Virus record (IMG/VR): IMGVR_UViG_3300020577_009322 | Span: 32,001-96,000 of that record | Length of the DNA stretch: 64,000 nt | Strand: one strand, 5' to 3' | Origin: a virus | Lineage: Duplodnaviria; Caudoviricetes | Part shown: positions 3,112-42,807 of the stretch, one piece after another | Layout: every line of letters starts with the position of its first letter | How positions within the stretch are numbered: position 1 is the stretch's first letter | The notes under the pieces: generated by a model | What the model was told of the DNA's origin: nothing | Seen by the model: only the letters and a program-made list of their open reading frames with translations | The model's database searches: none | Program-made: the position numbers and the translations under genes

Positions 3112-3903
3112 TTAAATAAATATCTTATCCCATTCTAAGGGACCGTTGTAACCAGTTAAATGCTTTGCTCTAGTTCCTCCAATCTTCTCCTCAGTTCCAG
3201 TGAAATTTACCTTCAAAGTTCCTTTATCATTATAAACATAACCAATAGCATCTACTTTTCTTGGTAAACTTTCTCTTAATTTTCCAGTTAAAGCTAACTG
3301 TTTTGTAACAACTGTCTCTGTTCTGTCAGGTAAAGGTATGAATTTATCTTCAATATGACATACAAAAATCACACATTTTTTTGCAACTTTCATAAATAAA
3401 TTAAAGATAGTCATTACTTCCTCTCTAGACCACTTGTAACCATAACCATCAGGAAGTGTATGTACACTCTGATAATCATCATCTGCAGGATCGAGGAAGT
3501 CTCCTCCTTTAATAGGATTTCCCTTAGCATCTTTAACTCTATTAAAGGATTTTCCTTGTACACTATTCATATAACGATAAGTACCACTCCACTCTGCCCA
3601 TTCATTTACTTCTGTTAGAGTATCCAATGCTACGTAATCGTATCTTTTTCCTTCACTTATCAATTTTTCAGCCACTTTTTTTAACCAGTTTATCTTACCA
3701 ACTGGTCCTCTATCCTCGGGGACTATTATAGCTTTTGCCCGAGATTTTAGAGATCCTCTTTCTGTGTCCACAATTAGACAATTTTCCAATTCTGATAGTG
3801 CAGTAGTTTTTCCACACTTTTCCTTACCAAATAGAATACATGAGCTCATGTTAATTTCTGGCTCATGTGGCTTATTTGGAAAAATAATTTCTTCTTCTAT
3901 CAT
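3112..3903 (-). CDS. AAA_24/Sak4-like P-loop ATPase (putative recombination protein)
   Basis: GKEKCGKT Walker A, IVDTERGS, VALDTLT, IFVCHIE. Confidence 0.75.
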   Translation of the reverse strand: MIEEEIIFPNKPHEPEINMSSCILFGKEKCGKTTALSELENCLIVDTERGSLKSRAKAIIVPEDRGPVGKINWLKKVAEKLISEGKRYDYVALDTLTEVNEWAEWSGTYRYMNSVQGKSFNRVKDAKGNPIKGGDFLDPADDDYQSVHTLPDGYGYKWSREEVMTIFNLFMKVAKKCVIFVCHIEDKFIPLPDRTETVVTKQLALTGKLRESLPRKVDAIGYVYNDKGTLKVNFTGTEEKIGGTRAKHLTGYNGPLEWDKIFI

Positions 3904-4371: not shown

Positions 4372-5544
4372 TTAATCTTCTGTTAAATAGTGATAGGTTC
4401 CGCCACTTCTATGACAAATATTTTTTAAATCTCTATTACTCTGCATTAGACAGAGGGCATGTATTTTTATTGTAGGATGAAAAGATGGATCAACAGAATC
4501 ACTTCCATCATTAATTATCATTATCTCAAAATGATCCTCAGATAGTTTATAGGGATCACCCATTCCCTTAAACTTTGGTAATTCTCTCTTCTTTATAAAT
4601 GAAATAGTATCCTTAACACACTGATTAACATCAGTTGTTCCTTTGTTTAAACATATAAAATTCAAGTCGGAATACTTCATTCCTTTCTCAATTTTAACAA
4701 ACCCAAAAACTTCTGTTATAAAAGTACCAATATAAACATTATGTGCTTCACAGTGATCTCTTAGCTTAAGAGTAATTGCTGCCTCTAACATTCCTTTCTT
4801 GATATAGTCACTCATACTACCGCTATCATCTATAAGTATAATGAGATTTTGTGCTCTATCAGCTTTGCTAAAACGGGCTCTTACGTATAAGTCTTTAGCT
4901 GTAAGCTTTCTGGAAAATCCTGGTAAAGCTACTTCTACCAAATCCATATTATGGATCTCTGAGAAGTCTTCCATAGGAGTATATTTAACCATCTTTCCAC
5001 CATTATCCTTTACTTTCCTTCCTGATATTGCCTGAAAGGCCTTTTTTCTTGAAAGTAATGCTAAATATTTTATAAAATTAACATTTAGAGAAAGAATACT
5101 ACCTAAGGAATTATCCTTTTCACCTTCACCTTGATTTTCACGATAGTGATTCAGTATGTTTTTTAGATGATTATCTATATCTCCTTCTCCTTCTCCTTCT
5201 TGTTCTCTGTTCTCAAATTTGTAAGATAATACAGTTGCTACCTTAAGCATATCTGTAAAAGAGAAAGATTCTTTACGGATTTTTTTAACAAACCTCTTCT
5301 CCTCATCTCTTAATTGATGAATACTATCTTTATCCCTCCTAGTTTTACAATTAAAGAAATCATAATTAATATCTTCAACCGTCTTAATATCCTCTCCTGC
5401 CATTGTACAGGAGAGAGAATTATAGAAATCTTTTACTCTATGAGGAGATACCTTTCCCTGAAGATTTTCCTTCTTCAGAAATTCATCTATCTCTTTAGTA
5501 GTAATAGCTTCTATATTAGCCGCTTTTTCGAAAAATCTATCCAT
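4372..5544 (-). CDS. vWA-domain protein (ViaA-like partner of MoxR ATPase)
   Basis: MIDAS IILIDDSGSM, KGTTD, IINDG. Confidence 0.85.
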   Translation of the reverse strand: MDRFFEKAANIEAITTKEIDEFLKKENLQGKVSPHRVKDFYNSLSCTMAGEDIKTVEDINYDFFNCKTRRDKDSIHQLRDEEKRFVKKIRKESFSFTDMLKVATVLSYKFENREQEGEGEGDIDNHLKNILNHYRENQGEGEKDNSLGSILSLNVNFIKYLALLSRKKAFQAISGRKVKDNGGKMVKYTPMEDFSEIHNMDLVEVALPGFSRKLTAKDLYVRARFSKADRAQNLIILIDDSGSMSDYIKKGMLEAAITLKLRDHCEAHNVYIGTFITEVFGFVKIEKGMKYSDLNFICLNKGTTDVNQCVKDTISFIKKRELPKFKGMGDPYKLSEDHFEIMIINDGSDSVDPSFHPTIKIHALCLMQSNRDLKNICHRSGGTYHYLTED

Positions 5545-6549: not shown

Positions 6550-7620
6550 TTAAATGTATTTTACTTTTTCCTTATCGAAGAACATCAAAGCTGTTGATAT
6601 TCTATCGATTTCAAAATCCTCATCGCTAACTACTATATGAATAGAAGCTTTTTTCTCAGGATTATCATATTCTAATCCTAGAAAACGACAAATCTTTTGT
6701 GCTGTATCTTCAGGATTTCCTGAAGTATAATTAATTAGTCCTATATTTATAGGAACAATTGTTAGACCAGACTGTGCCATTTTTATTGTTACTAAGCAAT
6801 TACCTTTCCCGTTACAGAAATTAGATAATACTCCCTTTTCTTTATTCTTGGAATGATACACGGGATATCCTAGCTTATCTGCTATCTCAGTAACTCCACA
6901 AAAGCATAGTACTCTTTTTCCAGAGAAGGAAGAGAGTAACTCTTTTGTTTTCTCCATCTTTGCTATAGAATTCTGAATAAGGGATATTTGCTTTAAATAA
7001 ACAAAAAAGGAGTCTTTTTTCTCCTTTTCTAATTTGCTATAGGCATTTTTCAATATCTCGAACTGTTTCTTTTCTGTTCGTTTATTAGGTAGCAACTTAC
7101 TATTATCTAAAGCTACTTTGTGAATGAAAATTTCATAATCACACAATATTCCTTCTTCAACAGCCTGTTCTATAGGATAGTCATAACACACATCAATATC
7201 TGCAAGATTACTTATTTCTTCCTGTGTTTTTTTGGTTATGGTACCACTTAAGGCTAATACCTTCTTTGGATTTATCTTCTTTACAGAACATAGTTGGTTA
7301 GAAGAGCATTCATGTATCTCATCTATAACTAATATATCATAATTGTTAATAGATACCTTATGAAGAGAGCGGTGAGTAGTATATTCTATCTCACCATCCC
7401 ATCCCCATTTTTCTTTGTCTTTTTCCCAACTATCCTTTATATCCAGACGTGGAATAGCTATTAGAGCCTTTTTAATCAAATCTCTCTTAAAGATATCTAA
7501 GGTAACCTTTATTTTTCCAAATCTAGGTGCACATTTAAGCAATGAATGGTATTTTCCACTATAACTATTTACTGCTTCTAACTGTCTTATCTTTCTTATC
7601 CCTTGGTCTTCTATTAGCAT
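6550..7620 (-). CDS. Superfamily 2 DExH helicase
   Basis: APRFGK, VIDEIH, LSGT, QKICR motifs. Confidence 0.8.
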   Translation of the reverse strand: MLIEDQGIRKIRQLEAVNSYSGKYHSLLKCAPRFGKIKVTLDIFKRDLIKKALIAIPRLDIKDSWEKDKEKWGWDGEIEYTTHRSLHKVSINNYDILVIDEIHECSSNQLCSVKKINPKKVLALSGTITKKTQEEISNLADIDVCYDYPIEQAVEEGILCDYEIFIHKVALDNSKLLPNKRTEKKQFEILKNAYSKLEKEKKDSFFVYLKQISLIQNSIAKMEKTKELLSSFSGKRVLCFCGVTEIADKLGYPVYHSKNKEKGVLSNFCNGKGNCLVTIKMAQSGLTIVPINIGLINYTSGNPEDTAQKICRFLGLEYDNPEKKASIHIVVSDEDFEIDRISTALMFFDKEKVKYI

Positions 7621-17937: not shown

Positions 17938-20202
17938 TATTTTATCTTTGTTTGTCCTAAAATAGCCTCAATAGACTTTAATCCTTCCTTACTTCCAATT
18001 CCTTTACAGATAGTAAAGAATGAGTCATATATGGTAAAACCATCCCTAACCAATTCTGCTACTAGCTTTAAGTGCCTGATAGACAAATTAAAGGAGATAG
18101 TATACTTATCATGAGCAGTATTTATGTCCTCATAACACTTAACAATTCTGTCAATATCTTTAGGAGATACTGTTGGAGTATGGTAAGTTAATACTTCTTT
18201 AACTTGATTGGTTGTTAGTGGATCAATCTCAATAAGCATGAACCTATCTAATAAGGCTCTATCCAATTTATGTGTACCTGTATACTGACTACCCAAGTTA
18301 GCAGTAGAGATAAATACACATTCAGGATGTACCTTAATTGGCTCACAATCATCAAAACAGTATTCCATTGACAGTTCTTTCCTGAAATCCGTACATGGGA
18401 ATAGGAGGTTATTTGCGGCTGCTGGAGCCATATTGTTATCGTATCGACTCTTTATTCGATACTTCTGTATCTTTATCTATACATACAGTTCAGACTATAT
18501 CATCATGATTTCTCATGTCGGATGTTCGTGGATATATTATATTCTCTTTCGAGTTTCAATATCTAGTCGTTGAACTCGCACTAACCATTTAGATTAGTGA
18601 TAAGCTGCTGATTACCCTCTTCACTAAGGGCTTTCCAGCAATTTATCCGATTTTTTACAAGACGCTACTCCATATAGGAAAACGTGTATTTTTTCCGCAA
18701 AGTTTTACCCTTACCTAAGCAAATTGAAGAAATAGAAGCACAAGTAGAATCAAAGTTGTCATTTGACAGAGATCTGGCTGCTTCTGCTATATTTGCAAAT
18801 ATAGATTTTTTACCAGTTGATAATTCTGTCATGATAACTGACCTCCACTTCCACTTAGAGCGTTCTATCCCATAAGAATAGTTAGGAACTTCTATATAAC
18901 TCCAATAATAACCACCCGCACTAAAAATTTTACCTCTGGCACAAGCAGATATCATGTTATTACATACTTTTGTTTTTCTACCTGCCTCTCTGGTTGAAGG
19001 AAAATTAGCTAATAATCTACCATCTAAAGTATATTGATAAACTTCCTTACTAGTAGATGTGCAATTATTTTGAGTAGTTGGATCCAACTCACAATTAAGT
19101 GTTGGACCTAATAGATCTATCCATTTCTTCTCTATCTTTCTAACTTCAGAAGAATCTTCGGTCTCCAGGATTTCTAGTACTGAGAAATACATATAATCTT
19201 CTCCATATTTATTGAAGATATTCTGCATTCTTGGATTATCCGATTTCCCACCTCTCAACTTTTGCTTGTGTTCAGCTAATCTCTTCTTAATATTTATCGA
19301 ACTACCTACGTAATTCTGCTCCTTTGCTTTAATATAGTAAATACCCGATTTACTAATTACACGTTTTGATTCATCACTAAATAATTTGTACATTGTTTTT
19401 CTTACAATATACAAATATTTGATGAGATATCCTAATTTAATTTTTAACGACTTATTTCATCTAATAACACAATACCTGGTTTCTGAATAACCTCAGAGAA
19501 ACGACTCCTGATGAACTCGGAGGTGGTATGTCCATCTTTTACCTTAATAGCATGGGTTCCAACTAACGACATAACGGGATCACTCATTGTTCCCATATCG
19601 AAGATAGTTAATGGTAATCCCATTTTCTTTGCCAAATTACTAACCAATTCTGTTTTACCTCATCTTGTTATCGTAAAGATTCTTTATTCTTTACTTCTGC
19701 ATCTTTTTATATTCATGCAGTTCAGACTATATCATCACCATTTCTAGTGTCGGGCACTCGTGGGAGAGATTATTGTTGAGCTCACTCTCCTAGTCGTTGA
19801 ACCTTCTAAACTCCTTTATCTCAAGTTTAGCTTGGCTGCTGATTGGCCGTTTCACTACGGCTATTCCAGCAATTCACCCGATTTATACTGGGCTAGGTAA
19901 ACCTAACTCCTTATCCATCTAGTTAATTTCTTACAATGTACGAAAATTATTGACAAATAGGACTATTAGGCTATATTTATTTTAACACCAGTTGGACCCA
20001 ATAGCATACTATTGACGCCCTTCAATATATTCCTCTCCAGAATCTTATACACACCTACTTGTACCTTAAAGTAGTCATTCAAGGATACATAACCATTTGT
20101 AATCTTCAGATCAGCGGTACTTACTGCAGTTTTAATAGGATCTGTTTTTCTTTTTGCTCTTGGCTTACGTACTTTGGTCACCACTTCTCTTTCTGTTGTC
20201 AT
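17937..20202 (-). CDS. MoxR/CbbQ-type AAA+ ATPase in three exons (20202-19985, 19660-19447, 18428-17937; 307 aa spliced)
   Basis: Joining the exons restores GPTGV-GKT and LLDEISR-APA; exon 3 has ISTAN...LDRALLDRF; total 924 nt in frame. Confidence 0.92.
18429..19446 (-). mobile_element. Group I intron 2 (1018 nt) carrying a homing endonuclease
   Basis: Follows U, ends in G; core AATTGCTGGAA, AATCAGCAG, GTTCAACGACTAG, GATGATATAGTCTG; IGS 18657-18672 pairs both exons. Confidence 0.93.
18665..19393 (-). CDS. Intron-encoded GIY-YIG endonuclease with NUMOD1-like repeats
   Basis: SGIYYI...YVGSS...R; VYQYTLDG..FPSTREA..SAGGYYW; probable ATG start at 19393. Confidence 0.9.
   Translation of the reverse strand: MYKLFSDESKRVISKSGIYYIKAKEQNYVGSSINIKKRLAEHKQKLRGGKSDNPRMQNIFNKYGEDYMYFSVLEILETEDSSEVRKIEKKWIDLLGPTLNCELDPTTQNNCTSTSKEVYQYTLDGRLLANFPSTREAGRKTKVCNNMISACARGKIFSAGGYYWSYIEVPNYSYGIERSKWKWRSVIMTELSTGKKSIFANIAEAARSLSNDNFDSTCASISSICLGKGKTLRKKYTFSYME
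19661..19984 (-). mobile_element. Group I intron 1 (324 nt, no ORF)
   Basis: Same four core motifs at about 19723-19875; IGS TTTACCTAGCCCAGT (19887-19901) pairs exon1 ACTGGTGT and exon2 AGGTAAA; terminal G. Confidence 0.93.
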
Positions 20203-30555: not shown

Positions 30556-30878
30556 AACTTAGATATTTCAGGAAATAAATATTCTTCTTCTTTATGAGGA
30601 TCCTTTAAAGGAATCCCTTTCTTAGATAGATGAGGAAAGGACATATAAGATAAGATAATATATGTATTAGTGGCTCTTGATTGGTACTCTCTGATAAGAG
30701 TTGAGCTGTCCCATCCTGATATATTTTCTCCATTTATTACCTCTAATATCATATTACGATAGCCGTCATAGTAGCGAGGTCCATACATTCTTACAAAATG
30801 AAAATCACCTTTACAGTTGCCCTCTCTGTAGAATAATATATCTCCAGGTGATAATTCCTCTATTTCTTTCTTATTCAT
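30552..30878 (-). CDS. YLFPPI-tail paralog 1
   Basis: Ends EEYLFPEISKL. Confidence 0.75.
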   Translation of the reverse strand: MNKKEIEELSPGDILFYREGNCKGDFHFVRMYGPRYYDGYRNMILEVINGENISGWDSSTLIREYQSRATNTYIILSYMSFPHLSKKGIPLKDPHKEEEYLFPEISKL

Positions 30879-30894
30879 TTTTAATTAATTTTTG

Positions 30895-30968
30895 TGATCC
30901 GGATTGGATTCGAACCAATGACCACCAGCTTAGAAGGCTGATGCTCTATCCAACTGAGCTACCGGACC
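30895..30968 (-). tRNA. tRNA-Arg(TCT)
   Basis: Canonical cloverleaf GGTCCGG/CCGGATC-A, loop CTTCTAA, GGTTCGAATCC; CCA not encoded. Confidence 0.93.
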
Positions 30969-30970
30969 AA

Positions 30971-31085
30971 TGTAGAAAGGGATGTCTTACTTAAACGACA
31001 GATGATATCCATTCCGTACTTATACATAGCAGGTTTGAGGGTCCGGATCATCTGAAAAGGATTCGAACCTTTTATATCCCTTACT
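30971..31085 (-). ncRNA. Circularly permuted tRNA-like RNA (3' half precedes 5' half)
   Basis: AGGGA-TAT-AAAAGG-TTCGAAT-CCTTTT-CAGATGA-TCC, ~39-nt spacer, TCATCTG-TC-GTTT-AAGTA-AGAC-A-TCCCT-TTCTA. Confidence 0.7.
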
Positions 31086-31092
31086 TTTTTAA

Positions 31093-31317
31093 TTACTTCT
31101 TCTTCTTTTCTTTCTTTCCTGCTCTTATCTTGTCCTGGTGAGCACGGATAGCCTTCATCTTTATTTTCCTTCTTTCTTTACGGAGAGCCCTGTATTCTTC
31201 GACAGTGGCAAGACCATTTTTTCTCATGTTTCTTAACATTGTTTTGGAATAGCCAAAATTTTTCTTAAATGTTTGGCCCTTTGTTGGCTTAGAAACTACT
31301 GTGTTTTCAGTACTCAT
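31093..31317 (-). CDS. Small highly basic protein
   Basis: K/R-rich 74 aa. Confidence 0.65.
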   Translation of the reverse strand: MSTENTVVSKPTKGQTFKKNFGYSKTMLRNMRKNGLATVEEYRALRKERRKIKMKAIRAHQDKIRAGKKEKKKK

Positions 31318-41780: not shown

Positions 41781-42263
41781 TCAATTCTTAGCATACCTTG
41801 ACCATCTTGCCTTGTTCTTCTCGTTCCTCATGTTCTGGCCAAACTTACTGAATTTTACATCAGTCAGCCAAACCTCATCATTACCTGATAAATCCAAGAT
41901 TAAATCACCGCTGTAACTACCAGTCTTGGTCAATTCACTGGTTGGATCATTAGGATCAACCAAGTCAAAGACCCATTTGTTGTCTGGCTCATCTTTCTCT
42001 AAGGCTTTCTCGATCAATTCAACCTTTACCTTCACCTCAACCACGTTCTCCTTGTATGGATGAACACGTTGACTGGCATCATCTGGATTGGCAATGAATG
42101 TTGATGATACAACCTTGTCAATTGGCTCAGCGAGAGTGAAGATTAAGAAATCAACCTTGTTTCCATCAGAATCTGCTGAAGATACCTCTCTTCTGAAGTC
42201 AACAAAAGAGAATTTGCTCATCGGCATTTCAGCCAGTTTGGCACGTAATGAGAACTTTTCCAT
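41781..42263 (-). CDS. Early protein, paralog of 41185..41652
   Basis: Same shared motifs as 41185..41652. Confidence 0.75.
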   Translation of the reverse strand: MEKFSLRAKLAEMPMSKFSFVDFRREVSSADSDGNKVDFLIFTLAEPIDKVVSSTFIANPDDASQRVHPYKENVVEVKVKVELIEKALEKDEPDNKWVFDLVDPNDPTSELTKTGSYSGDLILDLSGNDEVWLTDVKFSKFGQNMRNEKNKARWSRYAKN

Positions 42264-42310
42264 AAATAGACAGATTTACAATTAGCTCTGTTAGGCGTTT
42301 TGATTAATGA

Positions 42311-42352
42311 GAACCAGCCAGGGAATCGAACCCTGGTTGTTCCAAACTGGTT
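42311..42352 (-). ncRNA. Mini tRNA-like element (acceptor stem plus T-arm only)
   Basis: AACCAGT-TTGGAACAAC-CAGGG-TTCGATT-CCCTG-GCTGGTT-C. Confidence 0.6.
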
Positions 42353-42807
42353 ATTCTTTATCAACATCCAGTAAATACATCATCTTATTCAGACATTGCT
42401 GACTGGTATTAGTAGGAAATGATGCATCAAATGTTCTCCTCCCAATTACTGAGCCTATCTTCTGTATTATTTCAAGCTGAGCTTTATTATTCTCAATTTT
42501 ACCAATTACAGATGTCTTTTCTTCAGTATTGATGATGAACAGACTTTCGTTACTAACTGCAGCCAGCAATCCGCTGGGCATTTGATAATATTTCATAGCT
42601 ATTGTTTATGGATTAATAATATACTCACAGTTGTGTCCTGCAATTGTGTAGTTTTTCCAGTTGGCTGGAATGATGCATGACCATTCTTAACAGTCATCAC
42701 CATTGGTGTAACAACATATTTAGTTGATACACAGCTTGTTAATAACAAAGCTAATAATAGAATTTTCATGATTAATGATTTAAATGGTTAATGATTTAAA
42801 TGGTTAA

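What the first reader, a model, noticed from the sequence alone, without database searches (positions are those of the whole stretch)
30971..31085. Circularly permuted tRNA-like RNA with CUA (amber) at the anticodon position
Seen, minus strand, in this order: the 3' strand of an anticodon stem (AGGGA, 31081-77), a short variable region, a T-arm (AAAGG-TTCGAAT-CCTTT), a 3' acceptor strand CAGATGA followed by T-C-C, and a ~39-nt spacer. Then come the 5' acceptor strand TCATCTG (31005-30999), T8, a D-arm GTTT-AAGTA-AGAC, A26, TCCCT and T32-T33-C-T-A. All four cloverleaf stems pair, but the halves are swapped. The CTA ends 4 nt before tRNA-Arg, so RNase P processing of tRNA-Arg would define the 3' end. 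Known: permuted tRNA genes occur in some algae and an archaeon; bacterial YrlA Y RNAs share this T-acceptor-D order; some crAss-like phages carry amber suppressors. Inference: it could be a ligation-activated suppressor tRNA, a Ro-independent Y-like RNA, or an anticodon-less decoy. Caveats: the D-loop lacks GG, there is one extra nt after the T-stem, and no Ro60 or RNA ligase gene was recognised in the window.
Basis: partly seen in the sequence, partly recalled or inferred. Interest (0 to 1): 0.85.

Follow-up and report, generated by a model that had tools for sequence, protein, structure and literature searches.

The report
Orphan inside-out tRNA mimic in phage
Just upstream of a normal arginine tRNA gene, this 155-kb environmental phage carries a ~115-base stretch that folds like a tRNA with its halves swapped, its acceptor end looped shut and no anticodon loop; it is most likely a tRNA look-alike RNA, not an amber suppressor, and it lacks every protein partner known for such RNAs.

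Summary
On the minus strand at 31082-30977, four perfect helices form a tRNA cloverleaf in swapped order, and the free-energy fold recovers it. ARAGORN calls the re-joined halves a tRNA(cta).

The suppressor reading does not hold:
- The genome shows no TAG recoding and encodes no RtcB, Rnl2-type ligase or splicing endonuclease.
- The 'anticodon stem' runs on to 7-9 bp and swallows part of CUA.
- The counterpart in a related phage (G002) has other letters there.

G002 has the same four helices, rebuilt from different bases, in the same neighbourhood. There the module is the core of a larger RNA, about 1 kb downstream of a DUF7873 gene. All 10 DUF7873 loci I fetched carry such a module, with strong covariation. 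This scan had already found that pairing on other DNA.

A model built only from those modules ranks the window's element first (35.4 bits, 21/21 pairs). That model also hits permuted tmRNA and tRNA-tRNA junctions, so it shows architecture, not family membership.

The complete genome has no DUF7873, no Ro60 and none of the family's flanking motifs, and the D-loop lacks GG.

Best reading: a stripped-down, non-decoding tRNA mimic of YrlA-like topology, released with tRNA-Arg. A decaying relic is the main rival. No transcript data exist.

The parts
31076..31082 (-). 5' strand of the closing helix (AAGGGAT).
   Evidence: Sequence. Pairs with 30983-30977 in the MFE fold. All these pairs are standard when aligned to models R1-R3.
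31055..31073 (-). T-arm: stem AAAGG/CCTTT, or 6 bp with A31073-T31055. The loop TTCGAAT is canonical.
   Evidence: Folded as a 6-bp hairpin. It is one of four T-arms in the genome that ARAGORN assigns to no tRNA.
31048..31054 (-). 3' strand of the acceptor-like helix (CAGATGA).
   Evidence: Seven Watson-Crick pairs with 31005-30999.
31006..31047 (-). 42-nt cap that closes the acceptor-like helix. It begins TCC-GGA, and UCCG pairs with UGGA to lengthen the helix by 4 bp past a 2-nt bulge.
   Evidence: MFE fold. 'UC[UC]' follows the acceptor 3' strand in all 10 DUF7873-linked modules as well.
30999..31005 (-). 5' strand of the acceptor-like helix (TCATCTG).
30984..30998 (-). T8, C9 and the D-arm GTTT/AAGTA/AGAC. 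The loop is 5 nt, with A14 and A21 but no G18-G19.
   Evidence: The related modules have an almost invariant AGUGGUA loop instead.
30977..30983 (-). 3' strand of the closing helix (ATCCCTT).
30969..30976 (-). 8-nt tail TCTACATT, holding the 'CTA'. In the fold, C30975 and T30974 pair with G31084 and A31085.
   Evidence: The tail is not conserved in G002 or in the DUF7873-linked modules.
30894..30968 (-). Canonical tRNA-Arg(TCT), directly downstream. Its 5' maturation would set the element's 3' end.
   Evidence: ARAGORN. Rfam tRNA at 70.9 bits. The role of RNase P is inferred.
31093..31317 (-). Upstream ORF of 74 aa, very Lys/Arg-rich. Its stop codon lies 10 nt before the closing helix. It is context only and is not shown to be a partner.
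   Evidence: No Pfam family above cut-off. No relative found. No minus-strand promoter-like or terminator-like site lies between it and the element.

Best explanation
The stretch most likely encodes a small non-decoding tRNA mimic. It is a four-way junction in which a canonical T-arm, a 7-bp acceptor-like helix capped by a 42-nt loop, and a reduced D-arm radiate from a 7-9-bp closing helix made by the two ends of the RNA.

This is the topology of YrlA Y RNAs and of the tRNA-like modules of the RNAs that follow DUF7873 genes. A related phage (G002) carries the DUF7873-type RNA in the same genome neighbourhood. The window's copy is therefore probably a stripped-down descendant or cousin that kept only the tRNA-shaped core.

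Inferred mechanism:
- It is transcribed with the flanking minus-strand genes.
- Its 3' end is made when RNase P cuts 5' of tRNA-Arg, 4 nt beyond the 'CTA'.
- The product acts through its tRNA shape. It may occupy or recruit a host protein that recognises the T-arm/acceptor domain. It may instead act as a stable 3' structure or processing signal for the tRNA-linked transcript.

Shown: the fold, its non-random nature, the compensated counterpart, and the absence of decoding context and of known partners. Inferred: transcription, processing and any binding.
For: 1. All four helices are perfect. The element is the only strict hit in the genome, and chance completion given a T-arm is 0.4-0.7%.

2. 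G002 has the same architecture with zero mismatches. Its terminase is 67% identical. Its element lies on the same strand, about 19.6 kb upstream of the terminase as here, in a region sharing homologs of the 245-aa protein and the ATPase. The single-sequence model R1 aligns it with all 22 pairs standard, although almost every stem base differs. Its fold has z = -3.9.

3. G002's module lies about 1 kb downstream of a DUF7873 gene (PF25283, E 1e-37). All 10 DUF7873 loci fetched from viral contigs and bacterial genomes have such a module, and in the other 9 it lies within about 140 nt of the gene's end. On that alignment 96% of cells are paired, 19 of 22 pairs change on both sides, 0 of 500 shuffles reach this, and slid controls give 36-50%.

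4. Model R3, built from those 10 sequences without the window's, ranks the window's element first in 64 kb on both strands: 35.4 bits, E 1e-8, 21/21 pairs, next hit 17.6 bits.

5. 'UC[UC]' follows the acceptor 3' strand here and in all 10 family members.

6. There is no decoding role:
- No TAG read-through signal: 32 of 191 long ORFs end in TAG, and the longest ORF is 3912 codons under the standard code.
- The genome has 27 tRNAs covering all 20 amino acids.
- No RtcB, Rnl2-type ligase or splicing endonuclease.

7. Precedent from the literature (PMC4201824): YrlA has the order V-T-AS-D. M. smegmatis YrlA, which has a 7-bp acceptor stem, is cut by RNase P and receives CCA.
Against: - Only one genome carries this exact version. 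Metagenome contigs from river and wastewater runs are identical over it, so there is no covariation within its own lineage and no sign of ongoing selection.
- There is no RNA data.
- The D-loop lacks the G18-G19 that is almost invariant in the related modules, and there is an extra base or pair at the T-stem/acceptor junction. The tRNA elbow may therefore be impaired.
- The complete genome lacks DUF7873 and Ro60. It also lacks the conserved flanks of the DUF7873-type RNA.
- R3 is not family-specific. It gives 56.8 bits to the tRNA-like domain of a permuted tmRNA and 30-38 bits to junctions of adjacent tRNA genes, although those junctions have many unpaired positions.
- A search through default filters missed the window's element.
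- That the G000 and G002 elements share ancestry rests on position and architecture, not on sequence similarity.
Confidence: 0.5

Rival explanations
1. Decaying relic. An ancestor carried the DUF7873 gene and its large double tRNA-mimic RNA, as G002 still does. This lineage lost the protein and the RNA's flanking domains. What remains is a no-longer-functional module that happens still to fold.
For: - DUF7873 is absent from a complete genome with direct terminal repeats.
- The family's 5' GAAAGCCA motif, its 3' motif and its AAGGAUAUUGA hairpin are all missing.
- The D-loop has lost the family's AGUGGUA. The T-stem/acceptor junction is irregular.
- An ORF and a tRNA gene press directly against both ends.
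Against: - All 21 modelled pairs, and the extra closing pairs, are intact (20 Watson-Crick), although the stems share almost no bases with G002. Neutral decay should hit 42 or more paired positions as readily as the D-loop.
- The T-loop is still canonical.
- The element occupies a tight, apparently co-transcribed slot rather than a degenerating gap.
Confidence: 0.27
2. Two-piece, possibly chargeable tRNA-like RNA. RNase P cuts 5' of TCATCTG, the cap is trimmed after U73 and CCA is added, as in M. smegmatis YrlA and two-piece tmRNA. The result is two base-paired pieces with a free acceptor end.
For: - A 7-bp acceptor helix plus T-arm is the main RNase P determinant. M. smegmatis YrlA, with such a stem, is cut and receives CCA (PMC4201824).
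- The acceptor 3' strand is followed by U-C-C.
- A related phage (G010) encodes a permuted tmRNA, so permuted tRNA-like genes are processed in hosts of this clade.
Against: - In the fold, UCCG is base-paired and extends the helix to 11 bp. That would hide the cleavage site.
- There is no G3:U70 or other recognisable identity set.
- There is no experimental data.
- The same 'UC[UC]' in the DUF7873-type modules is not known to be a CCA precursor.
Confidence: 0.12
3. Circularly permuted tRNA gene that is matured by end-joining into an amber-suppressor tRNA(CUA).
For: Swapping the halves gives a cloverleaf that ARAGORN accepts, with CTA at positions 34-36 and T33.
Against: - No TAG recoding in the genome.
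- CUA is not conserved in the counterpart or in related modules.
- The closing helix extends through positions 32 and 34-35.
- No RtcB, Rnl2-type ligase or splicing endonuclease is encoded.
- The D-loop lacks G18-G19, and the acceptor/T stack is one base too long.
- Known permuted tRNA genes depend on the archaeal/eukaryal splicing endonuclease. This last point is from my own knowledge and was not tested here.
Confidence: 0.03
4. Chance, or a by-product of two tandem tRNA genes each truncated at one end, with no RNA of its own.
For: - Tandem duplication followed by loss of the outer halves would give complementary strands for free.
- Junctions of neighbouring tRNA genes score 30-38 bits with R3.
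Against: - No tRNA in the genome resembles it: the best global match is 48 of 70 positions.
- It has non-tRNA features shared with the related modules: the extended closing helix, the capped acceptor and UC[UC].
- A compensated counterpart lies at the same place in G002.
- Chance completion is 0.7% or less.
Confidence: 0.05

Closest known systems
YrlA (Y RNA-like A; Rfam RF02553; Chen et al. 2014, PMC4201824; Wang et al. 2018, bioRxiv 10.1101/312249)
   Same: - The order of elements is the same: T-arm, loop-capped acceptor-like stem, D-arm.
- The 'anticodon' stem is formed by the RNA's two ends.
- There is no anticodon loop and no free CCA end.
- YrlA is also found in phages.
- The M. smegmatis form likewise has a 7-bp acceptor stem.
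   Different: - No Rfam YrlA match on the element at E up to 10.
- No Ro60/TROVE gene in the complete genome.
- No GNCGAAN0-1G motif upstream, where an ORF ends 10 nt before the element.
- The D-loop lacks GG, so the tertiary contacts documented for YrlA may not all form.
tRNA-like modules of the large RNAs that follow DUF7873 (PF25283) genes. These were found by this scan on other DNA and re-verified here. I found no paper naming DUF7873.
   Same: - The core architecture is identical, and all 21 modelled pairs form.
- UC[UC] follows the acceptor 3' strand.
- A related phage carries the full DUF7873-type unit in the equivalent region.
   Different: - No DUF7873 gene anywhere in the genome.
- No conserved 5' GAAAGCCA motif, no 3' motif with its hairpin, and no second module.
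- The cap is 42 nt against about 20 nt.
- The D-loop is AAGUA instead of AGUGGUA.
- It abuts a true tRNA gene.
Permuted (two-piece) tmRNA genes (Rfam RF04321)
   Same: - The T-arm and acceptor 3' strand come before the acceptor 5' strand.
- A helix closes the tRNA-like domain.
- A relative (G010) has one, and my model R3 hits it at 56.8 bits.
   Different: - No RF04321 or other tmRNA match on the element.
- There is no room for a tag reading frame or pseudoknots, because tRNA-Arg starts 11 nt after the closing helix.
- No G3:U70.
Circularly permuted tRNA genes of the red alga Cyanidioschyzon merolae, other algae, and an archaeon (from my own knowledge; not read here)
   Same: The 3' half is encoded before the 5' half, and the swapped halves give a valid cloverleaf.
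   Different: - Those genes are rejoined through a bulge-helix-bulge motif, the splicing endonuclease and a ligase, and they decode.
- Here none of the endonuclease or ligase families tested was found.
- The anticodon region is not conserved.
- The host is presumably bacterial.

Membership tests
YrlA (RF02553) | Match to the Rfam covariance model at or above 69 bits | tested here: not met
   cmscan of 30850-31250 at E up to 10 gives no YrlA row. RF02553 run over the whole genome gives only weak hits at tRNA genes, including 12.3 bits inside tRNA-Arg, and none on the element.
YrlA (RF02553) | Encoded next to, and bound by, a Ro60/Rsr (TROVE) protein | tested here: not met
   PF05731 is absent from the complete genome and from G002, while the controls were detected. 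Binding to a host Ro60 cannot be tested here.
YrlA (RF02553) | GNCGAAN0-1G motif near the 5' end | tested here: not met
   There is none in the 60 nt upstream. G002 has GTCGAAAG, but in the other DUF7873 loci the same place reads xGAAAGCCA, and only 2 of 10 fit the motif.
YrlA (RF02553) | tRNA-like domain in the order T-arm, capped acceptor stem, D-arm, closed by the terminal stem | tested here: met
   the order is given in PMC4201824.
DUF7873-associated tRNA-mimic RNA | DUF7873 (PF25283) gene just upstream on the same strand | tested here: not met
   No PF25283 match in G000 at E up to 0.1. tblastn with the G002 protein finds nothing. The 245-aa neighbour is unrelated by hhalign (probability 0.1).
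DUF7873-associated tRNA-mimic RNA | Core module fits a covariance model built from family members only | tested here: inconclusive
   It is the top hit in the window at 35.4 bits, E 1e-8, 21/21 pairs. Family members score 67-88 bits, a permuted tmRNA scores 56.8, and tRNA junctions score 30-38. The model therefore tests architecture, not family.
DUF7873-associated tRNA-mimic RNA | Conserved flanks (5' GAAAGCCA; 3' UAAGCUU...CACAAAA plus a hairpin with AAGGAUAUUGA) and an AGUGGUA D-loop | tested here: not met
   The flanks are an ORF end and tRNA-Arg. The hairpin motif is not found near the element. The D-loop is AAGUA.
Functional circularly permuted tRNA gene / suppressor tRNA | Swapped halves give a valid cloverleaf | tested here: met
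   ARAGORN at default threshold: tRNA(cta), 72 nt.
Functional circularly permuted tRNA gene / suppressor tRNA | Anticodon conserved in homologs, and a need for it (in-frame TAG codons) | tested here: not met
   G002 and the related modules have other letters there. There is no TAG read-through signal in the genome.
Functional circularly permuted tRNA gene / suppressor tRNA | Machinery for end-joining (RtcB or another RNA ligase, splicing endonuclease) | tested here: not met
   PF01139, PF09414 and PF01974 are absent while their controls were detected. PF09511 is also absent, but its control detected nothing, so that one is inconclusive. Host enzymes were not examined.
Permuted tmRNA (RF04321) | Model match, tag reading frame, pseudoknots | tested here: not met
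   No tmRNA-family row at E up to 10. Only 11 nt lie between the closing helix and tRNA-Arg.

The most novel reading that the evidence does not exclude
The element is a self-sufficient, partner-less tRNA mimic. It is cut out of an early phage transcript by the host's own tRNA-processing enzymes, with RNase P acting at the adjoining tRNA-Arg. It then works as a decoy or sponge for a host factor that recognises the tRNA acceptor/T-arm domain, such as a tRNA-directed defence nuclease or a processing or modification enzyme. That would make it a minimal, Ro60- and DUF7873-independent branch of the permuted tRNA-mimic RNAs.
Probability: 0.2. Interest if true: 0.7.

Novelty: new variant of a known kind. 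Interest (0 to 1): 0.45.

Why it matters
RNAs with a tRNA body in permuted order are known as partners of Ro60 (YrlA). This scan has also found them repeatedly as partners of DUF7873.

An intact module with neither protein, fused to a working tRNA gene, would show that the tRNA-shaped core can be kept on its own. It would also offer a small, tractable object for asking what that core binds: about 115 nt, with one clear processing site.

The result also removes a tempting but wrong annotation, a phage amber suppressor. It adds a crAss-like environmental phage clade (river and wastewater) to the lineages that carry such mimics. Within that clade, one relative holds the full DUF7873 unit and another holds a permuted tmRNA.

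Tried and rejected
- **Neighbour proteins as bait.** The 74-aa and 108-aa neighbours found no relatives in viral contigs. The ATPase gave one locus. The alignment of the 245-aa neighbour gave nothing in viral contigs. In metagenome contigs it gave two short contigs without the element.
- **Exact DNA pattern of the element.** No match in viral contigs.
- **blastn of the locus against GenBank phages.** Only the tRNA-Arg matched. blastn against nine relatives likewise matched only the tRNA-Arg.
The 74-kb and 120-kb contigs that hold 50%-identical homologs of the 245-aa neighbour (P0003, P0004) could not be inspected. They are the best place to look for closer copies.
- **Model R2 and R3 over 32 related viral records.**
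  - With R2, only G000 and G002 had true modules, and the G005 hits were junctions of adjacent tRNA genes.
  - R3 over the same records mostly returned tRNA junctions and missed the window's element through the first-look filter.
- **Sequencing runs.** River and wastewater DNA contigs are identical over the element, so they give no variants. The RNA runs share only a few words, and I did not lay them. There is therefore no expression evidence either way.
- **GNCGAAN0-1G match in G002.** It turned out to be part of a different conserved motif.
- **DUF7873 structure.** The AlphaFold model was good (pLDDT 87), but there was no convincing fold match: Foldseek PDB E of 0.02 or worse, and VIA-align best Z 7.4 to generic helical proteins.
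- **Family hairpin motif near the element.** None found.
- **Other checks.**
  - The 74-aa basic ORF has no similarity to the ORF upstream of G002's RNA.
  - No sigma-70-like promoter or intrinsic terminator lies on the minus strand around the element. The scan does not cover Bacteroidota-type or phage-polymerase promoters.

Full report
**What is there**

The window is bases 32001-96000 of a complete 155,463-bp virus record with direct terminal repeats. Its polymerase, ligase, terminase, portal and capsid genes, and terminase relatives among crAss-like and Flavobacterium/Bacteroides phages at about 25% identity, place it among large environmental crAss-like phages. Identical DNA occurs in river and wastewater metagenomes.

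On the minus strand the elements come in this order:
- a 74-codon ORF, whose stop is at 31095-31093
- the flagged element
- 4 nt later, a canonical tRNA-Arg(TCT) at 30968-30894 (70.9 bits)
- four small ORFs

No promoter-like or terminator-like site lies on that strand around the element. Co-transcription is the simplest reading, but it is an inference.

**Checking the observation**

RNAfold recovers the four-way junction without guidance. Re-joining the halves in silico gives a 72-nt cloverleaf that ARAGORN calls tRNA(cta) at its default threshold.

A strict descriptor finds this site alone in both strands of the genome. If the T-arm is kept and the flanks are shuffled or replaced by random genomic sequence, the other three helices complete in 119 and 210 of 30,000 trials.

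Two details change the picture:
- The 'anticodon stem' is really a 7-bp helix (AAGGGAT/ATCCCTT). In the fold, two further pairs use the C and U of 'CUA'.
- The T-stem can be 6 bp, which absorbs the 'extra' T.

The D-loop (AAGUA) has A14 and A21 but no G18-G19.

**Is it a suppressor tRNA?**

I find nothing in favour beyond the letters CTA.
- Under the standard code the genome has ORFs up to 3912 codons. TAG ends 32 of 191 long ORFs. Reading through TAG merges no credible gene pair.
- ARAGORN finds 27 tRNAs covering all 20 amino acids.
- The complete genome has no RtcB, no Rnl2-type RNA ligase and no tRNA-splicing endonuclease, and the controls for these searches were detected. The Rnl1 search was uninformative.
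- Most directly, the letters are not conserved in the counterpart described next.

**A compensated counterpart in a related phage**

Terminase searches gave nine to eleven related viral contigs. Scanning their full sequences with the descriptor found one more perfect permuted cloverleaf, in G002 (terminase 67% identical). It lies on the same strand and about 19.6 kb upstream of the terminase, as here. The region also holds homologs of the window's 245-aa protein and ATPase.

Its stems share almost no bases with the window's. Even so, a model built from the window's sequence alone aligns it with all 22 pairs standard.

It has a canonical AGUGGUC D-loop and a strong hairpin in the acceptor cap. 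Its closing helix is 8 bp and continues after an internal loop. Its fold has z = -3.9. Where the window has UUCUACA, G002 has UUAGAGC.

**What G002's element is**

G002 encodes a full-length DUF7873 protein (PF25283, E 1e-37) about 1 kb upstream on the same strand.

DUF7873 is highly conserved in metagenomes, with 171 clusters at E of 1e-5 or better. All 10 DUF7873 loci I could fetch carry a permuted tRNA-like module downstream. Seven are viral contigs including G002, after dropping L167 (scored identically to L166), and three are bacterial assemblies. In the nine other than G002 the module starts within about 140 nt of the gene's end.

On that alignment:
- 96% of cells are paired.
- 19 of 22 pairs show changes on both sides.
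- No shuffle of 500 reaches this, and slid partners give 36-50% pairing.

The alignment was fitted to the structure, which inflates the figures somewhat. These RNAs are larger than the module. They share a 5' GAAAGCCA motif, a 3' UAAGCUU...CACAAAA stretch, a hairpin with AAGGAUAUUGA in its loop, and often a second module. G002 has all of these flanks.

G002's apparent match to the YrlA Ro60-binding motif is part of GAAAGCCA and is not general.

**Does the window's element belong to that family?**

A model built only from the 10 DUF7873-linked modules ranks the window's element first in 64 kb on both strands: 35.4 bits, E 1e-8, no non-standard pair, next hit 17.6 bits. Its row forms 21 of 21 pairs. 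It also shares 'UC[UC]' after the acceptor 3' strand.

The model is not specific, however:
- Family members score 67-88 bits.
- The tRNA-like domain of a permuted tmRNA in another relative (G010) scores 56.8 bits.
- Junctions of adjacent tRNA genes reach 30-38 bits, though with many unpaired positions.

The window's genome has no DUF7873 by profile or tblastn. It has none of the RNA's flanking motifs, no TROVE/Ro60, no YrlA model match and no tmRNA features.

I therefore file it as sharing the architecture of these families, and probably sharing ancestry with G002's module. I do not file it as a member of any of them.

**Mechanism**

Shown:
- a non-random four-helix fold in permuted order
- no decoding context
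- no known partner gene
- direct abutment on a tRNA gene

Inferred from established tRNA biology and from YrlA (PMC4201824; 10.1101/312249): RNase P cutting at G30968 would leave the element with an 8-nt 3' tail. Its T-arm plus 7-bp helix is the part of a tRNA that RNase P, TruB, the CCA-adding enzyme and several other tRNA-binding proteins recognise.

I think the most likely role is a tRNA-shaped decoy or scaffold, or a structured 3' end for the upstream message. I put about even odds on it being a working non-decoding mimic.

The main rival, at about one in four, is a relic left after loss of DUF7873 and the flanking RNA domains. Against that, 21 or more pairs are intact while the D-loop is the only degraded part.

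A two-piece, CCA-tailed form, as in M. smegmatis YrlA, is possible. In the fold, however, the UCC after the acceptor strand is paired.

**Limits**
- One lineage only, with no variants and no RNA reads.
- DUF7873 itself gave a confident model but no informative fold match, and I found no paper that names it. The family's function is therefore also open.

Noticed in passing
window 42319-42335 (-), within about 42242-42353; also G001:82028-82044 and 82618-82634 (+), and G002:15427-15443 (-): A T-arm that no tRNA caller claims. It is flanked by a 6-7-bp acceptor-like helix whose 5' strand lies only about 12-20 nt upstream, so it forms a minihelix (acceptor plus T-arm) with no D-arm or anticodon arm. 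The same layout recurs in two relatives, which suggests a second small tRNA-like RNA family in this clade.
   Followed up: partly
genome G000:C1:104445-104461 (+), outside the window (locus L160); similar at G003:8186-8202 (-) and G004:116611-116627 (-): An orphan T-arm at the edge of the big tRNA cluster. An acceptor pair (GGAAGAG/CTCTTCC) lies only 58 nt upstream, with a ...CUGAAAAC... loop between. ARAGORN does not call it. It is conserved in layout in two relatives.
   Followed up: no
L176 (G010:169619-172718), minus strand 972-1616: A related 176-kb phage encodes a circularly permuted tmRNA. It matches Rfam tmRNA_permuted at 58.6 bits and tmRNA at 99.2 bits. Its tRNA-like domain has a full D-arm, and a tag-like frame ends ...RLAA. 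It sits among four tRNA genes.
   Followed up: partly
L064:5033-5110 (+), 85 nt upstream of tRNA-Arg(TCT) at L064:5194-5266: The same relative has a normal-order tRNA-like gene at a place comparable to the window's element, just upstream of tRNA-Arg(TCT). Its anticodon loop reads TTCCTAA, and 6-7 extra bases lie between the T-stem and the acceptor 3' strand. ARAGORN does not call it.
   Followed up: no
L045 (G002) minus strand: 6627-6706, 5109-5181, 5000-5016, 4944-4960, 3841-3857: G002's early region is dense in odd tRNA-like pieces. These include a sub-threshold tRNA-like element (25.9 bits) about 145 nt after the permuted module, an ARAGORN 'tRNA-SeC(tca)' call, and three more T-arms outside any called tRNA.
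   Followed up: no
window 31093-31317 (-): The ORF that ends 10 nt before the element encodes a 74-aa, extremely Lys/Arg-rich protein that ends in KKEKKKK. It has no family match and no relatives in the searches I made. A nucleic-acid-binding role is only a guess.
   Followed up: partly
genome G000:C1:102403-102475 (+), compared with window 30894-30968 (-): The phage carries two tRNA-Arg(TCT) genes. The solitary one next to the element looks bacterial-canonical. The one in the cluster has an unusual T-loop (GTTTGACCC).
   Followed up: no
window 18471-18690 and 19704-19978 (-): Two group I introns reach Rfam's gathering score (64.1 and 88.9 bits). Another note of this scan places them inside a MoxR-type ATPase gene.
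   Followed up: no
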